Shown here: piece after piece, positions 29,442 through 51,239 of the stretch
How the letters are laid out: every line of letters begins with the position of its first letter
How positions within the stretch are numbered: position 1 is the first letter of the stretch
NCBI GenBank assembly: GCA_024653215.1
Contig: JANLFU010000004.1
Location: forward strand, 29,574-93,573
Source of the DNA: Candidatus Saccharicenans sp.
Lineage (GTDB): Bacteria; Acidobacteriota; Aminicenantia; Aminicenantales; Saccharicenantaceae
Direction: 5' to 3'
DNA length: 64,000 nucleotides
Notes under the pieces: generated by a model
What the model was told of the DNA's origin: nothing
The model's input: only the letters and a program-made list of their open reading frames with translations
Databases searched by the model: none
Position numbers and translations under genes: made by a program

Positions 29442-29462
29442 ATCACAAATTAGGAGAAATGG

Positions 29463-30997: not shown

Positions 30998-31038
30998 ATA
31001 AGGGAGAGTTCATAATTGGAAGGTTAAATGATGTAAGA

Positions 31039-31974: not shown

Positions 31975-32013
31975 CCCGTTTCGAATGGGGTTGTGTATGA
32001 TGGAGAGCAAATT

Positions 32014-33098: not shown

Positions 33099-33117
33099 TG
33101 GATAAGAAGGTTGTGAA

Positions 33118-34516: not shown

Positions 34517-34520
34517 TCCA

Positions 34521-34985
34521 ATGACTATAAAAATAAAGAAAAAAACGTTCATATTTATAATAGCGTTAGCGTTAGTTATTGGTGCTTTTGCATATTTGGG
34601 CATATTGGAAATGCTGGATAAAACTCTTGTCAGGCGAGCAGAGTTATTGAAAGCGGGGATGACAGAAAGTGACGTGGTAAATATCTTGGGAAAACCCCGG
34701 GAGTTCGAGCTTATAGACTTAAGAGTGGCAGAAAATAGAGGTCTGCCTAAGGCTATTTTGAGTCGGATTGAAAAATACAACCAGGCAATAAAATGGTGGG
34801 CATATTATGTGCCGGGATATCTAGTCAATCCACCGTTTCTTTTCCATCCAGGGCCTTACAGGACAATTGTTGTTGTCTTTATTGATCATAATGGACATGT
34901 GGTTCACTCAAGTATTGGTATAACAATTAGAAGAATAAAGCCTTTTGAATTACTAATGAAAGATCGCGATACAAATCAGAATTAG
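34521..34985 (+). CDS. Membrane-anchored BamE/SmpA_OmlA-like protein, candidate immunity protein for module D (paralog of 32014-32424)
   Basis: N-terminal TM (FIFIIALALVIGAFAYLGIL). Then GMTESDVVNILGKPRE, the same motif and position as in the module B partner. Confidence 0.5.
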   Translation: MTIKIKKKTFIFIIALALVIGAFAYLGILEMLDKTLVRRAELLKAGMTESDVVNILGKPREFELIDLRVAENRGLPKAILSRIEKYNQAIKWWAYYVPGYLVNPPFLFHPGPYRTIVVVFIDHNGHVVHSSIGITIRRIKPFELLMKDRDTNQN

Positions 34986-35075
34986 TAATAAAGGGTCTAA
35001 AAATAGGGAAAACGTTTGCTTTGTAACTTTATCTAGGCTGTTTGAGTTCCAAGAATTTTGAAACAGAGATTGTGG

Positions 35076-35500
35076 ATTGATATGATGGCTATGGGAATTG
35101 CCTGCGTGAGTATGTCTACATGGTGGCGAAGATGGTGGCTGAGTACCAGCCGGCTACGGGCAAGTATTACTACTACACCACCGACCAGGTTAATTCCACC
35201 CGGGTGGTGACGGATGATGAGGGTAACGTGGTGTATTCCGCGGCCCATGATCCCTATGGTGGAGTGCAGCAGACCTGGGTCAACACCTTCAACGCCGGGT
35301 GGAAATTTTCCGGCAAGGAGCAGGATGCCGAGTCAGGTCTCTACTACTTCGGTGCCCGCTACTATGACCCCACGCTCTACCGCTTCCTCAGCCCCGACCC
35401 GGCGATCCCCTCCGACCGGGCCATCTACAACCCGCAGAGGTGGAATTTATACGGGTATTGCCTGGGCAACCCGATAAATTATGTTGATATGGCCGGTGAG
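35076..35500 (+). repeat. RHS core-tip repeat copy E. Begins at …YDGYGNCLREYVYMVAKMVAEYQP…
   Basis: Full-length copy of the repeat, ending …GNPINYVDMAGE. Confidence 0.8.
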
Positions 35501-36034
35501 CAAGCAGAAAGCTCTCGAAAGCTGATAATAACCAGGACTATTTCTGGACCTACAGGAACGTTCGGTCGTTTTAAATTTGAGGGTAAATACATCACCATAG
35601 AAGGGGAGACGCTTGAACTTCCCTGGAGAAACAACATAAATTATATAAGCCGTATTCCTGAAGGGGAATACGAGGCGATATTACATTATTGGGATGATAG
35701 GGATATATGGGCCTTGTTGCTCCAAGACACTGGATCTCGTAAAGGGATTTACATCCACGAAGGGAACACGACAAAAAACACCAAGGGGTGTCCGCTTATT
35801 GGCCAGCGGTTTGATAACCAGGGGAGGCTATCAGGAGGCAGGGCACTTAGAGAGGCCATTACTGCTGATTATTTAATTGACCAGGTCTTAAGCGCCTGGT
35901 TTAATCTTGACAGGCTGAGCCGCACTGTTCAAAAGGCAACTGCTAAGATTGAAAGAGGGGAAGTGTATTCTGAGTGGGCATGGATTGGATTTACTCTAGT
36001 CATTAACGGCGTGCAATATTATTTTTATTTTTAA
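35120..36034 (+). CDS. Orphan RHS C-terminal module E: core tip fused to a YkuD-like (L,D-transpeptidase-fold) candidate peptidoglycan-targeting toxin domain
   Basis: C-terminal domain motif IYIHEGNTTKNTKGCPLIG (H-x9-T-x-G-C) resembles the His…(S/T)xGC catalytic motif of L,D-transpeptidase-like effectors. Homologous to the module F toxin domain. Confidence 0.45.
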   Translation: MVAKMVAEYQPATGKYYYYTTDQVNSTRVVTDDEGNVVYSAAHDPYGGVQQTWVNTFNAGWKFSGKEQDAESGLYYFGARYYDPTLYRFLSPDPAIPSDRAIYNPQRWNLYGYCLGNPINYVDMAGEQAESSRKLIITRTISGPTGTFGRFKFEGKYITIEGETLELPWRNNINYISRIPEGEYEAILHYWDDRDIWALLLQDTGSRKGIYIHEGNTTKNTKGCPLIGQRFDNQGRLSGGRALREAITADYLIDQVLSAWFNLDRLSRTVQKATAKIERGEVYSEWAWIGFTLVINGVQYYFYF

Positions 36035-36048
36035 TAAGGGGAACAAGA

Positions 36049-36726
36049 ATGAAATGGCCAGGCCTAAAATATCTTAATTTTCTGATTGCGTTTCCAATAC
36101 TAATGATGTCGTTGACTTACCCTCTGGAGAATACGTCGGTCGCTTATCCAAACCAGGTTAATAAGATGCTAACCTTAGAAGAAGCAAAAGAAATTATAGA
36201 TATTTTCTTAAACGACCCAACTGAGGCAAACTTTAAGATTGTACAAGAGACGATATATCCTTTTCTGAGTGTAGTCGATCAGGAATCAACACCGTTTCAA
36301 GACAAATTGTTTTCTTATGTACTTACTCGGGAGCCGTTCTGGATTTTTGAGTATGAAATATTTGCGGGTAATAGGTTAATGGCCTTGTTTGCCAGGAGGC
36401 TCTTGGATGTTTCAGACGGGGCTTATGCGAGCATGTTGTTTAAACTGTTCGGAAAGTTGAGTCGCCTTAATCCCGAGTTATTCCTGACCATGTTTAAGGA
36501 TGACATAAAAAAGCCGGTTTTAGAATTGGCAGTTACAGAATCAATTTTTCTCGAGGGAACAGAAAAATATCAAAGATATGACAGGTATGATCTAATCCAG
36601 AGGATAAAAGCATTAAGGACGGTAACCAATCCGGAACTAAGAAATATAAGAGATTATTGCATCTTATTATTGGAAAGAGAATTGAAGGAAAACGGGCTAT
36701 ATCAGATGGGATATTCTCGTAAGTAG
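36049..36726 (+). CDS. Secreted protein (signal peptide), candidate periplasmic immunity protein for module E
   Basis: Signal peptide MKWPGLKYLNFLIAFPILMMSL. C-terminal region …RIKALRTVTNPELRNIRDYCILLLEREL aligns with the module F partner (…RIKALETVDCPIYLDLRNECIKILEKEI). Confidence 0.5.
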   Translation: MKWPGLKYLNFLIAFPILMMSLTYPLENTSVAYPNQVNKMLTLEEAKEIIDIFLNDPTEANFKIVQETIYPFLSVVDQESTPFQDKLFSYVLTREPFWIFEYEIFAGNRLMALFARRLLDVSDGAYASMLFKLFGKLSRLNPELFLTMFKDDIKKPVLELAVTESIFLEGTEKYQRYDRYDLIQRIKALRTVTNPELRNIRDYCILLLERELKENGLYQMGYSRK

Positions 36727-36737
36727 AGTTTAGCCTA

Positions 36738-37592
36738 ATGATCTTAAGAGATTTTCCTTACACCGCCGACCAGGTTAACTCCACCCGGGTGGTGACGGAT
36801 GATGAGGGTAACGTGGTATATTCCGCGGTCCATGATCCCTATGGCGGGTTGCAGCAGACCTGGGTCAACACCTTCAACCCCGGGTGGAAATTTTCCGGTC
36901 ATGAGCAGGACCCTGAATCCTCCCTTTACTACTTCGGGGCCCGCTACTACGACCCCGGCCTCTACCGCTTCCTCAGCCCCGACCCGGTGATTCCCACCGA
37001 CCGGGCCCTTTACAACCCGCAGAGGTGGAATCTGTATGGGTATTGCCTCGGCAACCCGATAAATTTCGTAGATCCCTTCGGGGATATTACGATTAGAATA
37101 TGGCGGACACTTTATAACAATTATGCCACATATGGGGTTTATGAAATCGAGCTTGGAGACACGAGAATCTGGGGTTTTACAATGGAGCCGGCGAAGGGCA
37201 AGGGAAAAGGACCGATACCGGCAGGGATATATGAGGCTGACTGGTTCTATTCAGAAGAAAATAAAGAACTCAGGATTAAAATTAATGACATCCCGAACTT
37301 CAAAAACATAAGAATTCACAAAGGAAATTACCCTGGCGATACGACCGGATGCATTTTAGTAGGGAAAGATGTTAATACAGGAGGCGATCTGTTAGGCTCG
37401 GGAAAAGCGATGGCAGAAATAAGAGGGGGAATTATGGATTATCAGATGGGTGCTCTGAAAGAATATATAGCTGATGGCGAATTAGATCTTGAACTTTTGC
37501 ATCGGATTTTTGATATGCAAGTTATCATATATGATATTCCGAAGGGTAGCGTAACGGTAGAAGTTACATCTATACGCTATCTTATGTATTAA
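36738..37592 (+). CDS. Orphan RHS C-terminal module F: core tip fused to a YkuD-like candidate toxin domain (paralog of module E)
   Basis: IRIHKGNYPGDTTGCILVG (H-x9-T-x-G-C). Alignable with module E across …IPEGEYEA… / …IPAGIYEA… and the HxGN…TxGC core. Confidence 0.45.
   Translation: MILRDFPYTADQVNSTRVVTDDEGNVVYSAVHDPYGGLQQTWVNTFNPGWKFSGHEQDPESSLYYFGARYYDPGLYRFLSPDPVIPTDRALYNPQRWNLYGYCLGNPINFVDPFGDITIRIWRTLYNNYATYGVYEIELGDTRIWGFTMEPAKGKGKGPIPAGIYEADWFYSEENKELRIKINDIPNFKNIRIHKGNYPGDTTGCILVGKDVNTGGDLLGSGKAMAEIRGGIMDYQMGALKEYIADGELDLELLHRIFDMQVIIYDIPKGSVTVEVTSIRYLMY
36759..37085 (+). repeat. RHS core-tip repeat copy F. Begins at …YTADQVNSTRVVTDDEGNVVYSAV…
   Basis: Copy truncated within the YYYTTDQ segment, ending …GNPINFVDPFGD. 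Confidence 0.8.
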
Positions 37593-37610
37593 AGAGAGGG
37601 GGACGTCAAG

Positions 37611-38294
37611 ATGATGCTGGATTTTATAAAAGCCTTATCAAAGCTCTTATTAACTTCATTTTTTCTTCTTTTAATATCCGATTTAATGATTGCTCAGGCA
37701 GGAGCGGGGGGCGCACAAGATGCAATCATTCTTGATTGGGATAAGTTAAGGTCAGCGGTACAGAGATACAATTTAAAGCCGAACGAGGATAATGCGAGGG
37801 CGATATTAGAATCGATTCCTGAAAAAATGCCTGATAAGCAGGTTGGGGATGATGAACGTGCTTTAGATTATATGCTTGATAAGAGTCCAATAATTAAGAA
37901 GCAGATTGAGTCGGGGAATGAGTATCTGGCTGAAGCTGCATTCAGAATGTATTTTATTGTGCTTCCTGGTGATGCTCTGGAAGAGCTTACCTTAATGCTC
38001 TGCAAGATGCTGGAAAAGAAGCCCGAGCTATATCTTAGCTTGTTAAAAAAATATAAACCTCAATTTCCATGGTATCTCGAGTACCCATTGCTGATGACCG
38101 AGTTTGATGAAAAATTTGATGCAGAGCCCGATGGCCGGATTAGGCGTGACATTAAGATATATCGGCGGCGGATAAAGGCCTTAGAGACAGTGGACTGTCC
38201 TATATATTTAGATTTAAGGAATGAATGCATAAAGATTTTGGAAAAAGAGATTAGTCTGTTTGAATCGAAACTAAAAATTGAGTTGACTTCTTAA
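37611..38294 (+). CDS. Secreted protein (signal peptide), candidate immunity protein for module F (paralog of 36049-36726)
   Basis: Signal peptide LLLTSFFLLLISDLMIAQA. C-terminal similarity to the module E partner. GAGAGGGGGA RBS. Confidence 0.5.
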   Translation: MMLDFIKALSKLLLTSFFLLLISDLMIAQAGAGGAQDAIILDWDKLRSAVQRYNLKPNEDNARAILESIPEKMPDKQVGDDERALDYMLDKSPIIKKQIESGNEYLAEAAFRMYFIVLPGDALEELTLMLCKMLEKKPELYLSLLKKYKPQFPWYLEYPLLMTEFDEKFDAEPDGRIRRDIKIYRRRIKALETVDCPIYLDLRNECIKILEKEISLFESKLKIELTS

Positions 38295-38295
38295 T

Positions 38296-38715
38296 ATGCC
38301 AGAGGGAATTCCGTTCGCAATAAGCCAGAATAAATTCAAGATCGTGGAGAGGCTGGGTGCTTTTGAGAGGGTAAGGGAAAGGTTAAGAATCAGGTGGGAA
38401 GAAGCCGGGGTAGATGGGTCTATTTCAGGCTACAGGCCTTCAAGTGGGGCGGCCATTGACAGGCTGAAGAGGATGGATGGCTCAAAGGTAGGCTCGGGCG
38501 GGGACTTACGGACGATGTCTGTGGGGACCGTCGGGATATATTACATCTATGCCTTTGACGGGAGGCTTCTGGCTGAGTATGATGGATATGGGGATTGCCT
38601 GCGTGAGTACATCTACATAGGGGCGAAGATGGTGGCTGAGTACCAGCCAGCTACTGAAAAGTATTACTACTATACCACCGACCAGATTAACTCCAGCGGG
38701 GGTGGTTCTATGTAA
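38296..38715 (+). pseudogene. RHS stub G: retains a longer upstream YD-repeat-like segment (…GIYYIYAFDGRLLAEYDGYGDCLREYIYIGAKMVAEYQPATEKYYYYTTDQINS) then terminates with SGGGSM*. No toxin domain.
   Basis: Homology to the shared repeat stops exactly at TTDQINS, where copies A/B/E continue with TRVVTDDEG. Followed by a stop. Interpreted as a recombination or deletion scar. Confidence 0.5.
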
Positions 38716-38891: not shown

Positions 38892-39545
38892 ATGAACGCG
38901 CTTGAGCTTCGAAGCCGAATTCAGACTGAAATATTTGACTACCAGACTCTAACCAGTGCGCTCGGCAGCCTGTCATCTCCAAGGGATAAGATTACAGAAC
39001 TGCTGAGGAGCGGGATAATTATAAGGGTTAAGAAGGGGCTTTACGTATTTGGCGAAAAGTATCGTAAGCATGCCTATTCCAGGGAACTGCTGGCCAACCT
39101 TATATATGGCCCATCCTATCTCTCTCTTGATTATGCCCTGGCCTATTACGGCCTCATACCGGAAAAGGTTGAAGTCCTGACCTCGGTTACCCCCAATCGA
39201 TCTCGCCGATTTGCCACGCCGGTTGGTCTTTTCACTTACAGGCAGATACCGCATGGTGCTTACATAAATGGCCTGACCAGGGTTGAGGCCGATAATGACC
39301 AGGCCTATCTAATTGCCATTCCCGAGAAGGCCCTGGCTGATAAGGTCGCTTCCCTGCGCGGGCTCGCTTTCAATTCAACCAGGGAAGTCGCTCGTTTTCT
39401 CGAGGAAGATTTGAGAATAGATCTGGAGGCGCTGCGTTCTTTCTCAGTGGCCAAACTTGAAGAATTTGCCGCCGGGTATCGTTCCCGCAAGCTTAGGTAC
39501 CTGGCTGCCATGGTAAAAAAACTGGCCGCGAACCGGGAGAAATAA
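38892..39545 (+). CDS. abiEi: AbiEi-family antitoxin / transcriptional regulator (type IV TA, abortive-infection type)
   Basis: N-terminal wHTH-like region with …IIIRVKKGLYVF… …LANLIYGPSYLSLDYALAYYGLIPE…, typical of AbiEi_4/COG5340 proteins. Precedes the nucleotidyltransferase gene with a 1-nt gap. Confidence 0.65.
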   Translation: MNALELRSRIQTEIFDYQTLTSALGSLSSPRDKITELLRSGIIIRVKKGLYVFGEKYRKHAYSRELLANLIYGPSYLSLDYALAYYGLIPEKVEVLTSVTPNRSRRFATPVGLFTYRQIPHGAYINGLTRVEADNDQAYLIAIPEKALADKVASLRGLAFNSTREVARFLEEDLRIDLEALRSFSVAKLEEFAAGYRSRKLRYLAAMVKKLAANREK

Positions 39546-39546
39546 A

Positions 39547-40413
39547 ATGAATGAAGCCGTCAGGCAAATGCTGGGGGGATATGAAATTAAATCCCCGGGC
39601 GATTCGCTCTGGGCCTTGCGCGAAATAATTCAACAGGTGGCCCTTCTCGGGCTGTGGAGAAGCAAGTTTTTTGAAAGGGCCGCGTTTTATGGGGGGTCGG
39701 CCCTGAGGATAATTTATGGGATCGACCGGTTTTCCGAGGACCTGGATTTCTCCCTCCTCGAGGCGGACCCGGCTTTCTGCCTGGCCGATTATGGCCAGGC
39801 CCTGAAGCGGGAGCTGCTTTCCTTTGGGTTTTCTGTTGAAGTTGAAAGCAAAACAAAAAAGGAGAAAACAACCGTTCAGTCGGCCTTTCTTAAAACCGAT
39901 ACCCGTGAGCAGATGATCTCAGTGGGAATTAAGCCTGAACTTGTTAAGCAGATCCCGCCTAACCAGGTGCTAAAAATTAAGCTCGAGGTCGACGTGACCC
40001 CGCCACCCGGATTCTCAACTGAGATGCGTTATCTTCTAAAACCGATTCCGTTTTCCGTAAGGACCTTTACCCTGCCGGACATGTTCGCGGGCAAGATGCA
40101 CGCGGTTCTCTGCCGTCAATGGAAAAGCCGGCTCAAGGGCCGGGACTGGTATGACCTGGTCTGGTTTACCGCTCATCACCCAGAGTTGAGATTATCGCAT
40201 TTAGAGCAGAGGATGCGCCAGACCGGTCACTGGAAGGGATCAAGTCCCCTGGACGAGAGCACTTTTCGAGAATTGCTGATTGGCAGGGTAAAATCGGTGG
40301 ATGTGGAGCAAATAAAGAGGGAGGTGGAGCCCTTCGTCAGCAATCCGGCTGTCCTGGAAGTCTGGTCGCGAGAATTTTTTCTGGATATCATAAAGCGTAT
40401 TAAAGTTATCTGA
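39547..40413 (+). CDS. abiEii: AbiEii/AbiGii-family nucleotidyltransferase toxin (DUF1814)
   Basis: GGSALRIIYGIDRFSEDLDFS matches the conserved N-terminal nucleotidyltransferase motif of AbiEii. 288 aa. Confidence 0.7.
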   Translation: MNEAVRQMLGGYEIKSPGDSLWALREIIQQVALLGLWRSKFFERAAFYGGSALRIIYGIDRFSEDLDFSLLEADPAFCLADYGQALKRELLSFGFSVEVESKTKKEKTTVQSAFLKTDTREQMISVGIKPELVKQIPPNQVLKIKLEVDVTPPPGFSTEMRYLLKPIPFSVRTFTLPDMFAGKMHAVLCRQWKSRLKGRDWYDLVWFTAHHPELRLSHLEQRMRQTGHWKGSSPLDESTFRELLIGRVKSVDVEQIKREVEPFVSNPAVLEVWSREFFLDIIKRIKVI

Positions 40414-44620: not shown

Positions 44621-46573
44621 TCACAATTTTAATTTAAATCCGGTGGAAATTGTAGTGCCCGGCGAACCGTAGCCATAAACGAGCTCGTAGCGGGTATTAA
44701 AAAGATTCTGGACGTGGAGGAAAAGGGTCAGGGGTTCTTTGAGGTCATAGCTTAAAAGCAGGTTGGCGATGGTGGCCGCTTTGAGCTTTACAGTCTGCGG
44801 CGGATAGGAAGAATAGTCCACGTCCAGCCGGGAACCGATATAGTTCAGCTCGGCCGCCAGGCTTGTTGATTTATGGGATAGGTTAAAGCTAACGTTGAAG
44901 CTGTCCTCCGGCCGGCGAAGGAGCGGGCTGCCGGTGTCCAGGTCCCGGGAGCTAAGATGAGTCCAGCCGGCGCTGATGTTTACATTCTTAAATAACCTGG
45001 CTTCCAGTGAGGCTTCCAGGCCGCGGCTTATAGCCCGGCCGACATTCTGGTAGCCAGAGCCAAAGTAGAACTGGATCAGGTTGCGGTAACGGGTTTCAAA
45101 ATAGGTGAGAGAGAGGGCCAGGCTGTCGCTGAATTCCTTCTCAATTCCGGCATCCCAGCCCAGGTTTCTTTCCGGGTGAAGCTCCGGGTTGCCGACCGGT
45201 CCATAATAATCCGCCGGGGCGAAGAGCTGGTAGAGAGAAGGGGCCTTGAAGCCGCTGCCCATGGTGCTTTTCAGCCGGGCCCCGATTTCAGGCAGGTCCA
45301 GGCAGGCTGCCGCCCTGAAGGTCAGGGCGCGGCCGAAGCGCCGGTGATGGTCAGAGCGAAGGCCCGCGGTCAGCGATAGCCTCTTCCAGGGTTTCCACTG
45401 GTCCTGGAGATAAAGGCCGAGCAGGGAGGCGGTTTTCTGCGGGAAGCTGCTTTCGTAGTTTCCCCAGGGACTGAAATAGAGATAAGAGGAGCTGCCCTGT
45501 TCCTGGCGGAAATCGACCCCGAAAACGAGGGTATGGTTCGGGGCCAGGAAGAAATTGTTCTGCCAGTCAATCTTGAAGAGCCGGCTCCGGTAAAGGGCTG
45601 AATCTCCTTCGTCCGGGTGGGCCGTATCGGCCGGGTTGTCATTTTCCCGGCGCCCGGCTTCCAGGCCGAAGACCAGTTTTTGCTGCCAGCGATGGCCGAG
45701 AAAAAAACCGTCGAGCTCCAGGCGGTTAAAGAGGAAGCGGGATTTCTGGAGAGAGTTGGGGTCATCTCCGTAGGGCCCGCCGAAGGTGTCCAGTTCGGCC
45801 CGGCCGAGCAGGCCGCGGGTCTGCCAGTTAAGACGAAAGTCCGGCGAGAAGCGGTAGCTTAGCTTGAGGGCCAGGCTCTGCTGGCTGTAGCCGTCGGCCT
45901 CGTTATTTCCCGGATAGCTGCTCCCGGCCTGGGAAATGCCGGCCGTGGTGAAGGTGTTGAATTCAGCCTGAAGAAAGAAGTTTGGCCAGACCCGGGCCAG
46001 ACTGAAATTTCCCTGGCCAGTCCGGAAAGTTCCGAAAAGGCCGGAAAGGCTGGCTTCGTTCTTTTCGGGGTCGGCGGTGACCATGTTCACCACCCCGGCC
46101 AGGGCGTCGGAGCCGTAAAGGGTGCTCTGGGGTCCGCGCAGGACTTCCACCCGTTCGATAAGAGCCAGGTTAAACAGGTTGAAGTTGAAAGAGCGGGAAG
46201 GGGAGACCGGGTCGTTGAGCTCCAGTCCATCAATCATGAAGACCGCATGTTCCGAATTGGCGCCGCGGATAAAAAGTGAACCAGACCCACCGGCCAGTCC
46301 GGTCTGGATGAAAAAGATGCCCGGGACGCCCGCAAAAACGCTCTCGGGCCTGACGGTGGCACCCGGTGGCAGCTTTTCTGCCTGGACCAGGCTGATGGCC
46401 GAGGCGGTTTCTTTGACCGGGGTTTCCAGGCGGGTAGCCGTGACCACTATCTCGTGCTGGATTTTTGGCGGCTGGGTTTCGTCATCAGCCAGCGCCGCTG
46501 CTGGAAGGCTGCTGAGAAGCCAGAGGCAAAGAGAAAGCAGGATGGGTAACCGGGCAGAAAGGTTTCGTTTCAT
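44621..46573 (-). CDS. TonB-dependent outer-membrane receptor (BtuB-sized)
   Basis: Signal peptide. TonB box/plug (DETQPPKIQHEIVVTATRLETP). 22-strand barrel-like C-terminal region ending …TGFKLKL. Preceded by a cobalamin riboswitch. Confidence 0.8.
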   Translation of the reverse strand: MKRNLSARLPILLSLCLWLLSSLPAAALADDETQPPKIQHEIVVTATRLETPVKETASAISLVQAEKLPPGATVRPESVFAGVPGIFFIQTGLAGGSGSLFIRGANSEHAVFMIDGLELNDPVSPSRSFNFNLFNLALIERVEVLRGPQSTLYGSDALAGVVNMVTADPEKNEASLSGLFGTFRTGQGNFSLARVWPNFFLQAEFNTFTTAGISQAGSSYPGNNEADGYSQQSLALKLSYRFSPDFRLNWQTRGLLGRAELDTFGGPYGDDPNSLQKSRFLFNRLELDGFFLGHRWQQKLVFGLEAGRRENDNPADTAHPDEGDSALYRSRLFKIDWQNNFFLAPNHTLVFGVDFRQEQGSSSYLYFSPWGNYESSFPQKTASLLGLYLQDQWKPWKRLSLTAGLRSDHHRRFGRALTFRAAACLDLPEIGARLKSTMGSGFKAPSLYQLFAPADYYGPVGNPELHPERNLGWDAGIEKEFSDSLALSLTYFETRYRNLIQFYFGSGYQNVGRAISRGLEASLEARLFKNVNISAGWTHLSSRDLDTGSPLLRRPEDSFNVSFNLSHKSTSLAAELNYIGSRLDVDYSSYPPQTVKLKAATIANLLLSYDLKEPLTLFLHVQNLFNTRYELVYGYGSPGTTISTGFKLKL

Positions 46574-46639: not shown

Positions 46640-46810
46640 AGAGAGGCTGCCGGGTTGAGGGCAGGTATCCTGACTCCCGGGTCCTCCTCCTCCCTGGCCT
46701 TCCCACCCCGGAGGGCAGTGGCTGCATCAGGGATTCGTCGCCGGTTACAGTAGCGGGGGCTGTGTCCGCCTCTCACGGACTTCCCTGCTTCTTAAACCCG
46801 AATCATAATT
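46640..46810 (-). ncRNA. Cobalamin (B12) riboswitch in the 5' leader of the TonB-dependent receptor gene
   Basis: Minus-strand sequence …AAGAAGCAGGGAAGUCCGUGAGAGGCGGACACAGCCCCCGCUACUGUAACCGG…GAUGCAGCCACUGCCC…GGGAAGGCC… carries the conserved B12-element core, including the GCCACUG B12 box. A hairpin CUCUUUUCUUC-GGGCG-GAAGAAAAGAG sits downstream (46625-46651). A short U-run lies further downstream (46588-46593), about 30 nt 3' of the hairpin and immediately before the RBS. Confidence 0.7.
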
Positions 46811-46868
46811 TATCAAATTCCGTTTCCGTGTCAATTATGGAAGTAGAATTGTGGCTGGCAAGGCCAGT

Positions 46869-47966
46869 TTAATTTTTCTGAATCCCGGTCGGCCTTCTTG
46901 AAAAAATCTCATGGTAATTCTTTATCTTGATCCTTTTTATCACCGGCCAACCTTCCCGATCTTCCGAGATGAAATACAAAAATCCATTATTTATCAATTT
47001 CGGTTTGGCCTGGCACTTAGCGGATAGTAAATAGTTGCCTTCTTCACTATAAATGTCTGCTATGTAGATTTTTTGTTTGCGCCTTTTCCGAGATGTGGTT
47101 ATCACATATAACCTATTCGATTCATCCAAAATCAATGCACTGAAAAGAGGCGCTGGGTTTCTACGATGGACATCATTTCTTGTCCTTTGACTTGAAATAT
47201 CCGGGGTTGTCTCCCTCGAAAAGGGAGGCCCCTCAATTGTTCTGACCAGGTTTCCAGAATAATCGTAAAACCTGATAAAGTACTGCGAGTTGTGAGCTAA
47301 CCACACTCCATTTCCGGCAGGGCATATGATAAAAGCCGGGAGGTTCTCGGGGTTAATAATCCCACCCGCCACTCCCCCTTCTTTACTGAACCTCAAAGTC
47401 CAGAGGCCGTGATCCTTAGGTTCCTGAAGAAAATATTTTATTCTTCCCTTTGCATCTAATCCGGTGATTTGACCAATCTTGCCTGATTCAGTGCTTGATA
47501 AGGTTACACCTATTATTTCATCATCATTGCTGGCGGCAAAATTGCCCGCGAGAAATGTGTCCAGTGGGAATTGTCTCAAGAACTCTCCTTTTCTTGAGTA
47601 TATTATTATTTTCCTTCCCTGGTCGTTGATGAATATCTTTTCTTCATTAACCCCCATGCCAATTATCCCTGTAAACTCGCCCGGCCCTTGGCCGGTTGAT
47701 CCAATTTCTCCGCATAAATTTCCACTGGCGTCCCATTCGGTAATTTTATCCTGTTCCAGCACATAATATTTTCCCCATCGGCTTAGATAAAATTCCTGGA
47801 TGAGTTTGGCTCCCGATTTTCTCGTATCTATAAAGATCTCCTCCTCGCCTTCCTTTATAAATTCTAGTTCTTCAAACCGCATAGATTGGTGCAATTTAAA
47901 AAATCCAATGCCTATGAGCATGGCAACGAAAATGATCGCAATAAGTACCGCTCCCCTCTGCTGCAT
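46869..47966 (-). CDS. Membrane-anchored NHL / 6-bladed beta-propeller-like protein
   Basis: N-terminal TM (AVLIAIIFVAMLIGIGFF). Repeated …G.IGSTGQGPGEF…I.V…DDEI… blade-like units. AT-rich. Own TTGACA-N15-TAGAAT promoter-like sequence immediately upstream of the ATG (possibly leaderless). Confidence 0.45.
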   Translation of the reverse strand: MQQRGAVLIAIIFVAMLIGIGFFKLHQSMRFEELEFIKEGEEEIFIDTRKSGAKLIQEFYLSRWGKYYVLEQDKITEWDASGNLCGEIGSTGQGPGEFTGIIGMGVNEEKIFINDQGRKIIIYSRKGEFLRQFPLDTFLAGNFAASNDDEIIGVTLSSTESGKIGQITGLDAKGRIKYFLQEPKDHGLWTLRFSKEGGVAGGIINPENLPAFIICPAGNGVWLAHNSQYFIRFYDYSGNLVRTIEGPPFSRETTPDISSQRTRNDVHRRNPAPLFSALILDESNRLYVITTSRKRRKQKIYIADIYSEEGNYLLSAKCQAKPKLINNGFLYFISEDREGWPVIKRIKIKNYHEIFSRRPTGIQKN

Positions 47967-48009
47967 CTCAAATTCTATTCTGAGTTAGTTAATGTCAAGA
48001 TAAAGTGTC

Positions 48010-48288
48010 TTACACCATCGGAGGCACGGCCTCACAATATGAGCCCCACCAGGCTCCGCCGCACTCACAGAAAATACCTCTTATGGGCCCTCCCGAATAA
48101 TACCTGTAATAACCACAGACCTCATGTCCGCCGCAATTTCCAAAAGTTTCGCAGAAAAGCAAGGTCCCATCCCCGCATAAGAAATTAATGCCGCAGCTAA
48201 GAGCGGGCCGACTGACTGTGAAGAAAAAGCCAGCAATGAGTGAGCTGACGATGAGAATTGGTATCGCCAGCCGCTTAAATTTTGGCAT
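48010..48288 (-). CDS. Secreted cysteine-rich small peptide precursor (92 aa, 8 Cys in the mature ~60 aa)
   Basis: Strong AAGGAGGG RBS 5 nt before the ATG. N-terminal signal/TM MPKFKRLAIPILIVSSLIAGFFFTVSRPALS. Then CGINFLCGDGTLLFCETFGNCGGHEVCGYYRYYSGGPIRGIFCECGGAWWGSYCEA, rich in Cys, Gly, Tyr and Trp. Confidence 0.55.
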   Translation of the reverse strand: MPKFKRLAIPILIVSSLIAGFFFTVSRPALSCGINFLCGDGTLLFCETFGNCGGHEVCGYYRYYSGGPIRGIFCECGGAWWGSYCEAVPPMV

Positions 48289-48316
48289 GTTAACCCTCCT
48301 TGATAAAATTATGAGT

Positions 48317-49411
48317 TCATAAATCAGCCTCGAAGATTATGGGCTGCCGGTTTTCCGGCCTTGTCGCCAGGCCAAACATCCTTCCGGCCGGCAAAATGAC
48401 AAAGCAATCTATATAAGAGGTTATATCTTGGTCATTCAGAGTTATCTTGAGCGTTCCGAGGAACTCGGCCTGCGGGCCGAACAGTAGAAATTTCTCATAC
48501 CCAAGGTAGTAGATGGACCCCTTATAAACTCCAATCCCTCTGTTCATTCTGACCAGCCGGATCTGGTTTGGTTTATTCTGTTTTTCCGGCGTGTCAGCCA
48601 TGATCTCCCTTTCTCGTTCCAGGGCGCGGTTAATCTCAGGAATATCTGATAGGCGCAGGTCCCTTTTGAATAGCTCCTTTCCAGTATGCCGGTCAAAGGC
48701 GAATAGTATCGGCAGGCAGGCATAAGCACCGTAGATGATCTGCCCATCAGCAAACAGCTCAACCAGGTTAAAGTGAAGATGAGCTATGTGGGAGGAACAT
48801 TTTATGGCTTTACCAAAAGCGCGGATTTGGTTGAAATTGAAATCAAATATGGAGAAAATGGGTTCCTCATTCATCTCGGCGATAGACCGGGTGACCTTTC
48901 TCGCTGGCGCAATCAATTCATTTTCCTGGCCGATGATGAGTGAGGGAAGGAAATAGGTTTCTTTCCTGGATATCACCCTTATCTTTGGGGCAAACCGATC
49001 GAATATTTTTATCTCTCCACCGGAGTTGTTTATGACGGCCAACATCTTATCGTTTGCGGTGACCGCCACGGGATAGTACAAATCTATCTCTCTCTGACCT
49101 ATACCCCCAATTACTCTTCTTAGCCTCCCCTCCCTATCAATTTCCAGGATCCTGTGCCTGTTAGAATCAATCAGGTATGCGGTTAAATCTTCGGTCATGT
49201 GGAATAGCTTGGTCTGAAAAAAAGTCCGGGAAATTTCGAAGTCTGTACCCAGGGTCTGCAGATCCAAAAATATCCGGGCCGCGATGACCATTTCTGGTAA
49301 GTTGCGGCCCCCCGGCACAGGGTTTTCCTGGTGGCAGGACGTGGAAAGACAGAGAAATAACATGATGAATGGAAAGGGTATATAAAAGCTTGGTCTTCTA
49401 CGTATTATCAT
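48317..49411 (-). CDS. Lipoprotein, NHL / beta-propeller-like (paralog of 46869-47966)
   Basis: Lipoprotein signal (…IMLFLCLSTSC). …IGGIGQREIDLYYPVAVTANDKMLAVINNSGGEIKIF… blade-like repeats. Start ATG overlaps the stop of the upstream redoxin gene (ATGA), indicating translational coupling. Confidence 0.45.
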   Translation of the reverse strand: MIIRRRPSFYIPFPFIMLFLCLSTSCHQENPVPGGRNLPEMVIAARIFLDLQTLGTDFEISRTFFQTKLFHMTEDLTAYLIDSNRHRILEIDREGRLRRVIGGIGQREIDLYYPVAVTANDKMLAVINNSGGEIKIFDRFAPKIRVISRKETYFLPSLIIGQENELIAPARKVTRSIAEMNEEPIFSIFDFNFNQIRAFGKAIKCSSHIAHLHFNLVELFADGQIIYGAYACLPILFAFDRHTGKELFKRDLRLSDIPEINRALEREREIMADTPEKQNKPNQIRLVRMNRGIGVYKGSIYYLGYEKFLLFGPQAEFLGTLKITLNDQDITSYIDCFVILPAGRMFGLATRPENRQPIIFEADL

Positions 49412-50367
49412 TTCAGCTTCGTTTTTAATTTACTAATTCTCTGGTTTATTTCTTTAATTATCCTTTCTTCTGAGAATCCCGGATATTCAGACCAGATAAC
49501 CACCCTATTATTATCGATAAGAACAGACCAGGGATCACACTTTAATCTTTCCTCTGTTATAAAAATGTTCTCTTCTGACATGAAATTTTGAATCAAATAT
49601 GTAGGGAAATTCCACCCCTGGGAGGTTCTAATCATCTTGACATCATCAACAGAAAAAGGCTCCATGAAAAAAACACCGAGGAAGGGGCCATCACCCGCAT
49701 TCGTGGAAATTTTCCGGAGCGTCTCAAGCCGGCTCACATGTTTGCAGGAAAGGCAGGAAGAATATGAAGAAAAAAATGTGAGAATGTTTAATTTTTTTAA
49801 CTCTTCAGATAGGGTCCTTCTTTGCCCATCTATTTCATAAATCATAAAGTCTGGAATAATTTCCCGTTCAATAAAAGGAGGTGACCAGACCGGGGGCTCC
49901 GCTCGCATTTCAACCATGTTCAGGTGTCTTTCTATTAGTTGTCTCAACAGCTCAGGCGGGAGAAGCTCGCTTTCCTTGAAAAGTATTTCTTGGTCAGGAC
50001 TGACAAGCATGGTAGCGCCACAGCACCCATTCAGGTTATGCTTTTCGATAAATTTGATTCCTCCGTCCTGTATTACGGGAAAAGATACCCGGCATAGCTG
50101 CTTGGCTTCTTCGGTGTCTTGGCGATTTCCGGTTGAAATTCCGAATACGGATAAGTTGAACATCTTAAATCTTTTCCATAGAGCCTGGGCATACATAATC
50201 GAAAATCTGTGAGAGAGGTTTTTGGGATCAAAAACTAAGAATAGTTCATGCTGGCGATGTAACCTATCACTAACCACCTGTTGGGGGTTGATGACTCCAG
50301 GAACCAGGCTGCGTAGGCAAGAAAAGGACAGGGTTAGAAAAATCAGGGTTTTCCCAACCCTATGCAT
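49408..50367 (-). CDS. Lipoprotein thiol-disulfide oxidoreductase (thioredoxin/TlpA-like fold, CxxC)
   Basis: Lipoprotein-like signal MHRVGKTLIFLTLSFSC. Redoxin-like segments (…VFGISTGNRQDTEEAKQ…, …LTFFSSYSSCLSCKHV…) with a C-L-S-C motif. First gene of the AT-rich operon. Confidence 0.4.
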   Translation of the reverse strand: MHRVGKTLIFLTLSFSCLRSLVPGVINPQQVVSDRLHRQHELFLVFDPKNLSHRFSIMYAQALWKRFKMFNLSVFGISTGNRQDTEEAKQLCRVSFPVIQDGGIKFIEKHNLNGCCGATMLVSPDQEILFKESELLPPELLRQLIERHLNMVEMRAEPPVWSPPFIEREIIPDFMIYEIDGQRRTLSEELKKLNILTFFSSYSSCLSCKHVSRLETLRKISTNAGDGPFLGVFFMEPFSVDDVKMIRTSQGWNFPTYLIQNFMSEENIFITEERLKCDPWSVLIDNNRVVIWSEYPGFSEERIIKEINQRISKLKTKLK

Positions 50368-50389
50368 TTTTTTCCCTTTTACAAAACCA

Positions 50390-50415
50390 TTTTAGCAAAA
50401 AAAAAAATATGTCAA
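50390..50415 (-). promoter_or_regulatory. Candidate sigma70 promoter for the redoxin / propeller / Cys-peptide operon
   Basis: Minus strand: TTGACA (50415-50410), 18-nt T-rich spacer, TAAAAT (50395-50390). About 22 nt upstream of the AAGGGA RBS and the ATG at 50367. Confidence 0.4.
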
Positions 50416-51239
50416 GTCCCTTGTTCTTTCCGGTAAAGACATAGTATCCAGTCTAATGGGCCTGTTTGGAAGTGGCACGGTGGTTAGGGCTAAAGGCCCT
50501 CAGGGCAGGAGAAAAGAGGAAACGCAGCCAGAGAAAAGAATCCATCGTTAGAACGTGTAACGAGATTATTATGAAAGAAAACGGCCGACCTCTTTTGGGC
50601 ATGCCTGTCATAGTGACATGAGGTTATGAACCAGATTTTCGCGCTCTCTGGTCATTTAGGTAATGAAAATACAGCCCTGCTCGGTTGGAAGCAGGGCCTG
50701 GGTGAAGGGCAAGGAAAGGAGGGGATTAAGAGAAGGAGGCGTTGAGGTTTAACTCCTGATTAAACCTGAATATTCCTCTTATTCTCATCTTTGCTCAATT
50801 GGATAAACAAACGGGGAGCCGTTTTGGTTGCAGGGAAATGAAGGATATTTTGAAGGGGAAGGCAATAAAAATTAAAGAATCATATAAGGGAAATAAGGGA
50901 AAAAGGGATCGAAAGGAAGCAAGGGTTAGAAAAATTAAAGAGAATGAAATAAAAAGCTGCTTTTTCTAATAATTATCTTTTTCCCCTTGCTAACAACAAA
51001 ACAATTATACCATAAATAAAAAAATTTTGCAAGAAAAATTTCACAGTTTTTAAAATTTTCCTGAAAGTTTCTGACGGATGCTGCTATATGGGGAAAAAAC
51101 AGGTCCTGGATGCAAAATTTTGGGGTCAAGGCTTTAATTTTGAGCCCTTCCGGGGTTAAAATACCGATGTCTGGCGGAATAATTGCCTTTTTGTGCCTGA
51201 AAACCCCGGCCAGAGGCCCGTTTTGGAGGAGAAAGCCTC

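What the first reader, a model, noticed from the sequence alone, without database searches (positions are those of the whole stretch)
46869..51239. AT-rich operon: CxxC redoxin lipoprotein, two paralogous beta-propeller proteins and a secreted 8-cysteine peptide, with an ~820-bp noncoding leader. Candidate undescribed system
Four co-directional minus-strand genes with sharply lower GC than their flanks. The first is a lipoprotein with a C-L-S-C thioredoxin-like motif. The second is a lipoprotein with NHL/6-bladed-propeller-like GxGxG…E blade repeats, translationally coupled to the redoxin via ATGA. The third is a 92-aa precursor with a strong RBS and signal peptide, and a mature region with 8 Cys plus abundant Gly, Tyr and Trp (CGINFLCGDG…CGGHEVCGYYRYY…CECGGAWWGSYC). 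The fourth is a propeller paralog with its own promoter-like sequence. A dedicated disulfide oxidoreductase beside a disulfide-rich secreted peptide, plus two propeller proteins as possible binding, processing or receptor components, suggests a self-contained peptide maturation or recognition module. The module could be a bacteriocin-like, signalling or adhesion system. The upstream 820-bp AT-rich noncoding region, with a promoter and a strong hairpin, suggests complex regulation or foreign origin.
Basis: partly seen in the sequence, partly recalled or inferred. Interest (0 to 1): 0.75.

Follow-up and report, generated by a model that had tools for sequence, protein, structure and literature searches.

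The report
Cysteine-rich peptide, redoxin, two propellers operon
An uncultured anaerobe (Candidatus Saccharicenans) carries a real, mobile four-gene operon for exported proteins: a thiol-disulfide enzyme, two propeller-shaped proteins and a small eight-cysteine protein. Gut Bacteroidales carry unstudied gene clusters with the same components, so this may be a widespread, uncharacterised way of making or handling disulfide-rich peptides.

Summary
Window 46869-50367 (minus strand) encodes four exported proteins:
- a tandem thioredoxin-fold redoxin with a conserved CxxC;
- an NHL-type propeller lipoprotein, coupled to the redoxin by ATGA;
- a 92-aa precursor of a 61-aa acidic, all-beta protein with eight cysteines;
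- a membrane-anchored DUF5128 propeller.

The window comes from Candidatus Saccharicenans (Aminicenantes). The block keeps its content and order in five lineages and three genomic contexts. It is AT-rich everywhere and under purifying selection (peptide dN/dS about 0.1).

The peptide has no relative outside this genus among 1.84 billion representative proteins. It has no Pfam family, no sequence match in the PDB and no matching solved fold.

A Phocaeicola plasmid carries several clusters with the same cast: a small Cys-rich NVEALA protein, DUF5128/BF3164 propeller(s) and a CxxC redoxin. These are annotated but absent from the searched literature.

Most likely mechanism (inferred): the redoxin performs thiol-disulfide exchange on the peptide, and a propeller acts as docking partner or receptor.

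The "820-bp leader" is really three things: the decarboxylase promoter side, a conserved promoter-to-terminator unit (candidate small RNA), and the operon's own promoter-like site.

Verdict: a new variant of a known but uncharacterised kind; function untested.

The parts
50389..50415 (-). Promoter-like site of the operon: TTGACA (50415-50410), a 15-nt T-rich spacer, then TAAAAT (50394-50389), about 20 nt before the redoxin ATG.
   Evidence: Read from the sequence. The TTGACA plus T-run is kept upstream of the redoxin in L022 and in L026, where the module sits in a different context. The scan did not list it because the spacer is shorter than 16 nt. Function is inferred.
49408..50367 (-). Exported tandem thioredoxin-fold redoxin (319 aa). 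The N-terminal domain has lost the CxxC but keeps C92 and a vicinal C115-C116. The C-terminal domain has C205-L-S-C208 (codons 49744-49755) and C277-D-P279.
   Evidence: Weak match to Pfam AhpC-TSA, E 2.8e-4. A PDB profile search hits ResA at E 0.014. The AF2 model (pLDDT 68) shows two beta-alpha-beta thioredoxin folds, with the CxxC just before helix 209-223. Top Foldseek hits in the PDB are ResA, Etrx1/2 and TlpA (E 3e-8, target TM 0.6-0.73). The CxxC, CC and C-D-P are conserved in all orthologues. The N-terminus is a signal or lipobox sequence (LSFSC).
48317..49411 (-). Propeller 1 (364 aa): an NHL-type beta-propeller lipoprotein (lipobox LSTSC). Its start codon overlaps the redoxin stop (ATGA).
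   Evidence: No Pfam or NCBIfam family. A profile search of the PDB hits the NHL propellers of Thin and Brat at 1.8e-11 to 8e-10. It is the most conserved of the three large proteins (49-78% identity). The 4-nt overlap with the redoxin gene is kept in L017 and L026.
48010..48288 (-). 92-aa precursor of the eight-Cys mini-protein. Shine-Dalgarno AAGGAGGG at 48294-48301; signal peptide residues 1-31; predicted mature part 48013-48195 (61 aa, about 6.6 kDa, pI 4.6).
   Evidence: Distinct homologues from the other lineages, all with invariant Cys spacing except the L017 copy, which has lost one Cys. dN/dS 0.09-0.16. The AF2 model is all-beta, pLDDT 67. No relatives outside the genus among 1.84 billion representative proteins. 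No sequence match in the PDB and no matching solved fold.
46869..47966 (-). Propeller 2 (365 aa): a membrane-anchored NHL-type propeller of the DUF5128 (BF3164-like) family.
   Evidence: Pfam PF17170 scores 33.6 bits against a cut-off of 22.9, and all four orthologues match (best 3.4e-11). The PDB profile search hits the NHL propellers of Thin and TRIM2/3/71 at 1e-13 to 1e-8. hhalign against six Phocaeicola DUF5128/BF3164 proteins gives 97% probability, E 7.6e-11. The N-terminus is a hydrophobic anchor.
50665..51032 (-). A separate conserved unit inside the 'leader'. It has a sigma-70-type promoter (51032-51004, TTGCAA-17-TATAAT with TG), about 300 nt of transcript, an exactly conserved 42-nt C/U-rich block (50699-50740) and an intrinsic terminator (50698-50673 plus a T-run). 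It is probably not part of the module.
   Evidence: Conserved between genomes whose synonymous sites are saturated or nearly so. Absent upstream of the module in L026. No Rfam family. Folding is no more stable than shuffled sequence (z = -1.2).

Best explanation
This is a self-contained, horizontally mobile, extracytoplasmic operon of Candidatus Saccharicenans. Its purpose is to make or handle one small disulfide-rich protein.

Shown:
- Four co-oriented genes with short or overlapping junctions.
- All four products carry Sec-type export signals.
- The first product is a ResA/TlpA-type thioredoxin-fold protein with a conserved CxxC.
- The second and fourth products are NHL-type propellers.
- The third product is a conserved, purifying-selected precursor of a 61-aa, eight-Cys, all-beta acidic protein with the strongest ribosome-binding site in the operon.

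Inferred:
- After signal-peptide cleavage before Cys32, the CxxC domain of the redoxin carries out thiol-disulfide exchange on the peptide, forming or reshuffling up to four disulfides.
- This would parallel the dedicated thiol oxidoreductase of bacteroidetocin clusters in Bacteroides, which are reported to lack general disulfide-forming machinery.
- Propeller 1, translationally coupled to the redoxin, serves as the docking platform. This parallels the NHL domain that sits against the Trx-like active site in NHLRC2 and SOQ1.
- Propeller 2, anchored in the membrane, binds the finished peptide as holder, receptor or self-protection partner.
- The folded peptide then acts outside the cytoplasm, most likely in cell-cell interaction or competition. 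That end use is the weakest step.
For: - Unit character. Content and order are the same in five lineages and three contexts: decarboxylase to btuB riboswitch; next to a WD40 gene in L018; and between two 5S rRNA copies after 23S in L026.
- Foreign composition everywhere. Module GC3 is 0.30-0.56 against 0.50-0.80 for its neighbours.
- Redoxin fold and CxxC placement.
- Conserved coupling of the redoxin and propeller-1 genes.
- The peptide is real: dN/dS about 0.1, invariant Cys framework, strong Shine-Dalgarno.
- Joint decay in one MAG. In L017 the redoxin lacks about 105 N-terminal codons and its promoter, propeller 2 is split, and the peptide has Cys45 (mature numbering) changed to Tyr. A close relative, L024, keeps an intact redoxin and eight Cys.
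- Independent analogue. Phocaeicola vulgatus plasmid NZ_CP096966.1 has at least four clusters pairing an NVEALA small protein (4-6 Cys in the C-terminal part) with a DUF5128/BF3164 propeller. Three of them also have a CxxC protein (FSQLNCSSC, FSPQNCYPC, NPPCTSC). One of these is annotated as redoxin and overlaps the propeller gene.
- Propeller 2 is homologous to those Phocaeicola propellers.
- Literature precedents. A dedicated thiol oxidoreductase is needed for full activity of a four-Cys peptide toxin (PMC6671954). The Trx-like active site faces the NHL propeller in NHLRC2 and SOQ1 (PMC6107167 and bioRxiv 10.1101/2021.03.16.435614).
Against: - No experiment or expression data exist, and no interaction was modelled.
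- TlpA/ResA-type proteins are usually reductants, so the direction of the reaction is unknown.
- The xx of the CxxC varies between lineages (LS, RT, PE, ST, SN), so the redox properties are not obviously tuned.
- The mature peptide is acidic and is the slowest-evolving component (63-93% identity against 40-50% for the most divergent orthologues of the three large proteins). Neither feature is typical of cationic bacteriocins or of diversifying toxins.
- There is no transporter, peptidase or obvious small immunity gene.
- The peptide and the redoxin show no significant sequence similarity to their Phocaeicola counterparts. The CxxC regions align in register, but only at E 0.0036 and 9% probability.
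- DUF5128 propellers also occur alone (L026 7910-9034).
- The frameshifts and the decayed copy come from MAGs or metagenome contigs and could be assembly errors.
Confidence: 0.4

Rival explanations
1. A stable surface or periplasmic protein complex with no antagonistic or signalling role. The eight-Cys protein is a small structural subunit or lid bound to one or both propellers, for example in ligand or nutrient capture or in adhesion. The redoxin only helps it fold.
For: The mature peptide is the most conserved part and is acidic and aromatic-rich, as expected for a fixed protein-protein interface. The propellers are lipoproteins or membrane-anchored. NHL propellers are usually binding platforms. 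Neighbouring genes in the different contexts are often for glycan or nutrient uptake, such as the TonB-dependent receptor, GH172 and fucosidase.
Against: The neighbours differ between contexts, so no nutrient link is conserved. The strong peptide ribosome-binding site suggests an excess of peptide over the propellers. The module is AT-rich, mobile and fast-evolving, like accessory interaction genes.
Confidence: 0.2
2. A split SOQ1/NHLRC2-like redox relay. The Trx-like protein, the NHL scaffold and a small Cys-bearing beta protein pass reducing or oxidising equivalents to other envelope proteins. On this reading the peptide is a redox carrier, not an end product.
For: The order of elements matches the SOQ1 lumenal domains: Trx-like, NHL, then a small beta domain with a Cys pair proposed to be redox-coupled. 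The redoxin has six conserved Cys in two domains, including a vicinal CC at the position of the cis-Pro loop. The peptide is predicted to be all-beta.
Against: The defining CC(I/V)NC motif is absent. No NHLRC2 or SOQ1 chain appeared in the PDB profile searches with any of the three proteins at E up to 10. Eight Cys in 61 residues is more typical of structural disulfides. A second propeller has no counterpart in SOQ1.
Confidence: 0.13
3. A thiol-based metal handling module. The Cys-rich peptide binds a metal, and the TlpA-like redoxin keeps its thiols reduced, as TlpA does for ScoI and CoxB.
For: TlpA-ScoI complexes are among the structural neighbours of the redoxin (4txo). The peptide has eight invariant Cys. 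In three lineages the module lies beside a cobalamin-riboswitch-controlled TonB-dependent receptor.
Against: The receptor has its own riboswitch leader and is not adjacent in L018 or L026. His is not conserved in the peptide. No metal-site motif or known metallochaperone family was matched. This idea does not explain the propellers.
Confidence: 0.07
4. A quinoprotein-like enzyme. The Cys/Trp/Tyr-rich small subunit would carry a protein-derived cofactor and sit on a propeller subunit, as in methylamine dehydrogenase or quinohemoprotein amine dehydrogenase. A MauD-like redoxin would assist, and the divergent aromatic amino-acid decarboxylase would supply amines.
For: The cast is analogous, from general knowledge of the mau and qhp clusters: a propeller subunit, a small disulfide or thioether-rich subunit, and a thioredoxin-like accessory protein. 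A pyridoxal-dependent decarboxylase lies next to the module in three lineages. W50 and the YYRYY motif are invariant.
Against: The peptide matches no PDB chain at E up to 10, so it does not resemble MauA or QhpC. No MauG, radical-SAM enzyme or cytochrome is present. The propellers are NHL-type, not the seven-bladed dehydrogenase type. The decarboxylase is not linked in L026. The organism is an anaerobe.
Confidence: 0.03
5. Not a functional system: four unrelated accessory genes that merely travel together, with the small ORF of no consequence.
For: No functional data exist. All three large proteins belong to broad fold classes. Several copies carry frameshifts.
Against: Order, content and gene overlaps are conserved across saturated synonymous divergence and three contexts. 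The peptide is under purifying selection with an invariant Cys framework. The same cast recurs in another phylum.
Confidence: 0.05

Closest known systems
Bacteroidales clusters of an NVEALA small protein (PF14055), a six-bladed beta-propeller (DUF5128, PF17170; also named BF3164-family lipoprotein) and a redoxin. Example: Phocaeicola vulgatus plasmid NZ_CP096966.1. They are annotated in RefSeq, and no paper in the searched library mentions them.
   Same: The cast is the same: a small exported Cys-rich protein, one or two six-bladed propeller lipoproteins, and a CxxC thioredoxin-fold protein whose gene overlaps or abuts a propeller gene. Propeller 2 here is a true DUF5128 member, homologous to the Phocaeicola propellers. 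Both hosts are anaerobic diderm bacteria, and both modules sit on mobile or foreign-looking DNA.
   Different: The peptide here has a plain Sec signal peptide and no NVEALA segment, and it shows no similarity to NVEALA proteins. The redoxin here is a tandem two-domain protein not significantly similar in sequence. Propeller 1 is outside DUF5128. The gene order differs. One Phocaeicola cluster adds a signal peptidase I, an O-antigen-ligase-like protein and a transglutaminase-like protein that are absent here.
Bacteroidetocin (class IIf bacteriocin) gene clusters of Bacteroidetes (Coyne et al. 2019, PMC6671954)
   Same: A secreted Cys-containing peptide is encoded beside a dedicated thiol oxidoreductase that is needed for full activity. 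The host is reported to lack general disulfide-forming machinery.
   Different: Bacteroidetocins have a double-glycine leader, a peptidase-domain ABC exporter and a five-helix membrane protein. None of these is in this module. They have no propellers, and the peptides are unrelated.
NHLRC2 / SOQ1 (Trx-like domain, NHL propeller and C-terminal beta domain)
   Same: A TlpA-like thioredoxin fold is functionally joined to an NHL propeller, with the active site facing the propeller's top face. In SOQ1, a small beta domain with a Cys pair is proposed as redox partner. Here the redoxin and NHL propeller genes are translationally coupled and are followed by a small all-beta Cys-rich protein.
   Different: Here the parts are separate polypeptides. 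The motif is S-C-x-x-C rather than CC(I/V)NC. No sequence similarity was detectable in the PDB searches. The redoxin has two Trx domains, and there is a second propeller.
ResA / TlpA / Etrx family of extracytoplasmic thiol-disulfide oxidoreductases
   Same: Fold, membrane or lipid anchoring, and a CxxC at the start of helix alpha-1.
   Different: The protein is a tandem duplication whose N-terminal domain has lost the CxxC. There is no Trp before the CxxC. Extra conserved Cys are present (a CC pair and C-D-P). It lies below Pfam's curated cut-off (21.2 against 26 bits).

Membership tests
ResA/TlpA-like thioredoxin-fold oxidoreductase | Thioredoxin fold of the TlpA/ResA type | tested here: met
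   The AF2 model (pLDDT 68) has two beta-alpha-beta thioredoxin folds. Top Foldseek hits in the PDB are ResA, Etrx1/2 and TlpA (E 3e-8, target TM 0.6-0.73). Sequence evidence is weak: Pfam AhpC-TSA at 21.2 bits, below the 26-bit cut-off, and the ResA profile hit at E 0.014.
ResA/TlpA-like thioredoxin-fold oxidoreductase | CxxC at the N-terminus of helix alpha-1, conserved | tested here: met
   C205 and C208 lie immediately before model helix 209-223. They are invariant in all orthologues.
ResA/TlpA-like thioredoxin-fold oxidoreductase | Conserved cis-proline loop opposite the active site | tested here: inconclusive
   P279, within L-K-C-D-P-W, is invariant. By inspection it lies where ResA has its P-T-T loop. 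The cis conformation cannot be judged here. The N-terminal domain has C-C-G-A-T instead.
ResA/TlpA-like thioredoxin-fold oxidoreductase | Thiol-disulfide exchange activity and its direction | not testable with these tools
   This needs biochemistry.
NHL-repeat beta-propeller | Significant match to NHL repeat propellers | tested here: met
   Propeller 1 profile against the PDB: Thin 1.8e-11, Brat 7e-10. Propeller 2: Thin 1.4e-13, TRIM3/2/71 3e-10 to 1e-8.
NHL-repeat beta-propeller | Six blades closing a propeller | not tested
A mature length of about 330 aa and two to four matched stretches are compatible with six blades.
DUF5128 (PF17170) / BF3164-type six-bladed propeller | Score above Pfam's gathering cut-off | tested here: met
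   Propeller 2 scores 33.6 bits against a cut-off of 22.9, and all four orthologues match. hhalign to the Phocaeicola members gives 97% probability, E 7.6e-11. Propeller 1 does not meet this test: it has no Pfam hit, and hhalign gives 36% probability, E 3.7e-4.
NVEALA (PF14055) small proteins | NVEALA segment between an N-terminal hydrophobic helix and a Cys-rich tail | tested here: not met
   No Pfam hit at E up to 1. hhalign of the peptide family against a Phocaeicola NVEALA protein gives 0.6% probability. The motif is not present in the sequence.
NHLRC2 / SOQ1 | CC(I/V)NC active-site motif in a Trx-like domain fused to the NHL propeller | tested here: not met
   The motif here is S-C-[LRPS]-[STEN]-C, and the proteins are separate. 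No NHLRC2 or SOQ1 chain appeared among the PDB profile hits at E up to 10. The family definition comes from PMC6107167.
Bacteroidetocin-type bacteriocin cluster | Double-glycine leader plus a peptidase-domain ABC exporter and a five-helix membrane protein | tested here: not met
   The peptide has a Sec-type signal peptide. The module and its immediate flanks hold no such genes. The family definition comes from PMC6671954.
Bacteroidetocin-type bacteriocin cluster | Dedicated thiol oxidoreductase beside a Cys-containing secreted peptide | tested here: met
   The redoxin gene lies two genes upstream of the peptide gene, on the same strand, in every copy.
Quinoprotein amine dehydrogenase small subunit (MauA / QhpC) | Sequence relationship to the small subunit, with MauG or radical-SAM maturation genes nearby | tested here: not met
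   The peptide profile matches no PDB chain at E up to 10. No such genes lie in or beside the module.
Known anti-phage defence or phage gene families | Match to PADLOC or PHROGs models | tested here: not met
   No hits at E up to 0.1 for any of the four proteins. No relatives were found in IMG/VR contigs.

The most novel reading that the evidence does not exclude
The Saccharicenans operon and the Bacteroidales NVEALA/DUF5128/redoxin clusters are two branches of one widespread, never-studied class of Sec-dependent systems in anaerobic diderm bacteria. In this class a six-bladed propeller lipoprotein is the dedicated partner of a disulfide-rich secreted peptide, acting in folding, maturation or self-protection, and a private redoxin supplies the disulfides. 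This would be a new kind of peptide effector system. The arrays of divergent peptide-propeller pairs on a gut Phocaeicola plasmid look like polymorphic effector-immunity cassettes.
Probability: 0.25. Interest if true: 0.75.

Novelty: new variant of a known kind. Interest (0 to 1): 0.55.

Why it matters
If the inferred link holds, three things follow.
- It would assign a first working role to DUF5128/BF3164 and to NVEALA, which no paper in the searched library mentions. At least one gut Phocaeicola plasmid carries several such clusters.
- It would show that anaerobes said to lack general disulfide machinery equip individual secreted peptides with private redoxins and propeller partners.
- It would give a natural 'split' counterpart of the Trx-like plus NHL pairing of NHLRC2 and SOQ1, whose substrates are still debated, with an obvious candidate client encoded next door.

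The eight-Cys peptide itself is an orphan: it has no detectable relatives outside this genus and no matching solved fold. The Bacteroidales version is genetically tractable, so the idea is directly testable.

Tried and rejected
- Word-indexed homologue searches with the peptide, propeller 2 and the redoxin profile returned only Saccharicenans-type sequences.
- An exhaustive profile search with the mature peptide found only its own family. The four other hits were 'PDGTLxW' beta-propeller repeats, which are chance matches.
- Scans of GTDB genomes (propeller 1) and JGI metagenomes (propeller 2) found only the same genus-level group. Two viral scans found nothing.
- PADLOC and PHROGs gave no hits.
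- NCBIfam gave only an NHL-repeat cross-match to ScyF, far below its cut-off.
- The AFDB50 fold library was unavailable.
- The MauA/QhpC idea was rejected for lack of any sequence match.
- NHLRC2/SOQ1 membership was rejected on motif and on lack of similarity.
- The leader was tested as a known RNA (Rfam) and for unusual stability. Both tests were negative.
- No flanking direct or inverted repeats mark the module in the window.
- The Phocaeicola 176-aa CxxC protein could not be confirmed as a thioredoxin fold by Pfam, NCBIfam or PDB sequence search. Its assignment rests on motif position and on its similarity (32% identity) to the paralogue annotated as a redoxin, which gives a weak AhpC-TSA hit.
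- A lipoprotein fate for the peptide was considered. Most variants fail the usual lipobox pattern at positions -3 and -4, so signal peptidase I cleavage before Cys32 is preferred, though not proven.

Full report
**Source and anatomy**

The window matches Candidatus Saccharicenans subterraneus (Aminicenantes) at 99% identity over propeller 1 (L019). On the minus strand lie four ORFs:
- 49408-50367, 319 aa
- 48317-49411, 364 aa
- 48010-48288, 92 aa
- 46869-47966, 365 aa

The first two overlap by ATGA. The next two junctions are 28 and 43 nt. Module GC is 0.42-0.51 against 0.57-0.61 for the flanking genes. GC3 is 0.44-0.56 against 0.71-0.80.

A cobalamin riboswitch (46643-46816, 105.6 bits) separates propeller 2 from the downstream TonB-dependent receptor. 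That receptor is therefore a separate B12-regulated unit.

**The four products**

The redoxin gives only weak sequence hits: AhpC-TSA at E 2.8e-4, below Pfam's cut-off, and ResA at E 0.014. Its AF2 model (pLDDT 68) nevertheless shows two consecutive thioredoxin folds. Foldseek places it with ResA, Etrx1/2 and TlpA at E 3e-8 and target TM 0.6-0.73.

The C-terminal domain carries the conserved CxxC (C205, C208) just before helix 209-223. It also has an invariant C-D-P at the expected cis-proline loop. The N-terminal domain has lost the CxxC. It keeps C92 and a vicinal C115-C116 at the equivalent loop.

Propeller 1 has no Pfam or NCBIfam family. Its profile hits the NHL propellers of Thin and Brat at about 1e-11 to 1e-9. 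Propeller 2 passes the DUF5128 cut-off in all four orthologues and hits TRIM-type NHL propellers. The two propellers resemble each other only over about 85 columns (BLASTP not significant).

The peptide has a perfect Shine-Dalgarno sequence and a signal peptide. Its 61-aa mature part has eight Cys, 13 Gly, 5 Tyr and 2 Trp, with pI 4.6. All four N-termini are signal peptides, lipoboxes or signal anchors, and the type varies between lineages. The system therefore acts outside the cytoplasm.

**Is the small ORF real, and is this a unit?**

The identical peptide occurs on 19 contigs from many metagenomes. The distinct homologues from the other lineages share the invariant framework C-x5-C-x7-C-x5-C-x5-C-x15-C-x-C-x8-C and the motifs CGYYRYY, GPIRG and WG(S/A)YCE; the one exception is the L017 copy described below, which has lost one Cys. 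dN/dS is 0.09-0.16.

The four genes occur together, in the same order, in five lineages and three chromosomal contexts:
- between the aromatic amino-acid decarboxylase and the btuB riboswitch in three lineages;
- beside a WD40 gene in L018;
- directly after 23S-5S, flanked by a second 5S copy, in L026 and L023.

In L026 a 4080-bp unit (one 5S copy, about 220 nt of its downstream sequence and the module) is bracketed by repeats of 90% and 76% identity. This looks like insertion by recombination at the 5S locus (inference). The module is AT-rich relative to its neighbours in every lineage.

The module's large proteins evolve several times faster than the flanking genes. Between the window and L022, dN is 0.43-0.56 for the module and 0.07-0.21 for the flanks.

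One MAG (L017/L020) shows joint decay:
- a deletion runs from the leader terminator into codon ~105 of the redoxin;
- propeller 2 is split;
- one peptide Cys is replaced by Tyr.

A close relative (L024) has an intact redoxin and an eight-Cys peptide. Because these are metagenomic assemblies, I treat this evidence as suggestive only.

**Distribution**

The peptide family is confined to this genus-level group. The word-indexed search found four relatives. The exhaustive profile search of 1.84 billion representatives found one family cluster plus chance repeat matches. There is no sequence match in the PDB and no convincing fold match.

The redoxin and propeller 1 are equally restricted, within the sensitivity of the searches used. 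Nothing was found in viral contigs, PADLOC or PHROGs.

**The informative relative**

A tblastn search with propeller 2 against plasmids hit 'six-bladed beta-propeller' genes in Phocaeicola. The annotated plasmid NZ_CP096966.1 carries at least four clusters. In each, an NVEALA protein is followed by a DUF5128/BF3164 propeller. The NVEALA proteins (PF14055) have an N-terminal hydrophobic helix, then the NVEALA segment, then a tail with 4-6 Cys.

Three of the clusters also have a small CxxC protein:
- one is annotated as a redoxin, gives a weak AhpC-TSA hit and overlaps the propeller gene;
- it even has a vicinal CC right after the loop proline, reminiscent of the CC in the Saccharicenans N-terminal domain;
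- the cluster containing it continues with a signal peptidase I, an O-antigen-ligase-like protein, a transglutaminase-like protein and a further propeller.

Propeller 2 aligns to these propellers at 97% probability and E 7.6e-11. Propeller 1 aligns only weakly. The redoxins align with CxxC in register but not significantly. The peptides are unrelated.

No paper in the searched library mentions NVEALA or DUF5128. So the cast of this operon recurs in another phylum of anaerobic diderm bacteria, is named in databases, and is functionally unexplored.

**Mechanism**

The most economical reading has three steps.
- The redoxin acts on the eight-Cys peptide. An experimentally supported precedent is the bacteroidetocin cluster. 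Its dedicated thiol oxidoreductase is required for full toxin activity, and the authors note that Bacteroides lack general disulfide-forming machinery (PMC6671954).
- The translationally coupled NHL propeller provides the docking surface. A precedent is NHLRC2/SOQ1, where the Trx-like active site sits against the NHL top face and, in SOQ1, a small Cys-bearing beta domain is the proposed redox partner.
- Propeller 2 would hold or receive the product.

Shown: folds, motifs, export signals, linkage, selection. Inferred: the client relationship, the direction of the redox reaction, the propeller roles and the end use.

Against a classic bacteriocin: the peptide is acidic, it is the slowest-evolving component, and no exporter or small immunity gene is present. 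Rival readings are scored separately: structural complex, SOQ1-like relay, metal handling, quinoprotein-like enzyme and mere co-travelling genes.

**The 'leader'**

The 872-bp interval holds four elements:
- the decarboxylase promoter side;
- a conserved sigma-70-type promoter (51032-51004), followed by about 300 nt ending in an exactly conserved 42-nt C/U-rich block (50699-50740) and an intrinsic terminator (50698-50673);
- a poorly conserved spacer;
- a conserved TTGACA/T-run promoter-like site just before the redoxin.

The promoter-terminator unit has no Rfam match and no unusual stability. It is missing where the module sits elsewhere. It is therefore a candidate small RNA of the chromosomal site rather than a regulator belonging to the module. 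Its CCCUCCUU stretch is complementary to the peptide's AAGGAGGG, but any C/U-rich RNA would share that property.

**Verdict**

This is a real, mobile, genus-restricted operon whose component set matches unstudied Bacteroidales clusters. I classify it as a new variant of a known but uncharacterised kind, with an orphan eight-Cys protein at its centre. Interest is moderate to fairly high, because it links two phyla, points to a testable function for large unannotated families, and is unproven at every functional step.

Noticed in passing
window 46643-46816 (-): Cobalamin riboswitch (RF00174, 105.6 bits) directly upstream of the TonB-dependent receptor ORF 44621-46573. The receptor is probably a BtuB-like B12 importer with its own leader. 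Spurious ORFs overlap the riboswitch.
   Followed up: partly
window 50665-51032 (-): A conserved promoter, about 300 nt of transcript, an exactly conserved 42-nt C/U-rich block and an intrinsic terminator. The unit is conserved in three Saccharicenans lineages despite saturated synonymous divergence. It has no Rfam family and is a candidate small RNA. It contains CCCUCCUU, complementary to Shine-Dalgarno sequences.
   Followed up: partly
window about 28500-38700 (+): A second AT-rich island (GC 0.37-0.45) holds a row of ORFs. Several begin with an RHS-core end motif (PF03527) followed by different C-terminal domains (DUF5715/VanY-like, DUF5675), interleaved with small unknown ORFs. This looks like an array of orphan Rhs toxin/immunity cassettes. 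No large Rhs gene lies directly upstream.
   Followed up: partly
window 39547-40413 (+), with 38892-39545: An AbiEii-type toxin gene (PF08843 in the precomputed annotation of the matching contig) with a likely partner gene. It lies between the Rhs-like island and the acetyl-CoA synthetase gene.
   Followed up: no
L026 1-6112 (Ga0308419_1000259): Here the module lies immediately after 23S-5S and is followed by a second 5S copy. The 5S genes are at 1702-1818 and 5782-5898, and direct repeats of 180 nt (90%) and 131 nt (76%) are spaced about 4080 nt apart. This suggests insertion by recombination at the 5S locus. L023 shows the same 5S after propeller 2.
   Followed up: partly
L026 157-624: A 155-aa ORF sits inside the 23S rRNA gene. 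Its motif (GLCEGEASF) is typical of LAGLIDADG homing endonucleases, so this is probably an rRNA intron. It was not checked against Pfam.
   Followed up: no
L017/L020 7699-11415 (CALEUG010000015.1): A decayed copy of the module: the redoxin lacks its promoter and about 105 codons, propeller 2 is split into two ORFs, and the peptide has Cys changed to Tyr. Propeller 1 is split in L023 and L024 but intact in L026. These may be real pseudogenes or assembly errors in AT-rich homopolymer runs.
   Followed up: partly
L026 7910-9034: A stand-alone DUF5128/SGL-like propeller lipoprotein (374 aa, lipobox LMAVGC) with no Cys-rich small ORF or redoxin beside it. This propeller family is therefore not always tied to a peptide.
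   Followed up: yes
L028 14697-24168 (Phocaeicola vulgatus plasmid NZ_CP096966.1, 41696-51167): One NVEALA-propeller-redoxin cluster continues with a dedicated signal peptidase I (lepB), a Wzy_C/O-antigen-ligase-like TPR membrane protein, a transglutaminase-like protein and another propeller. This may be a fuller version of the system. The plasmid carries at least four divergent NVEALA-propeller pairs (17-27% identity among the propellers compared).
   Followed up: partly
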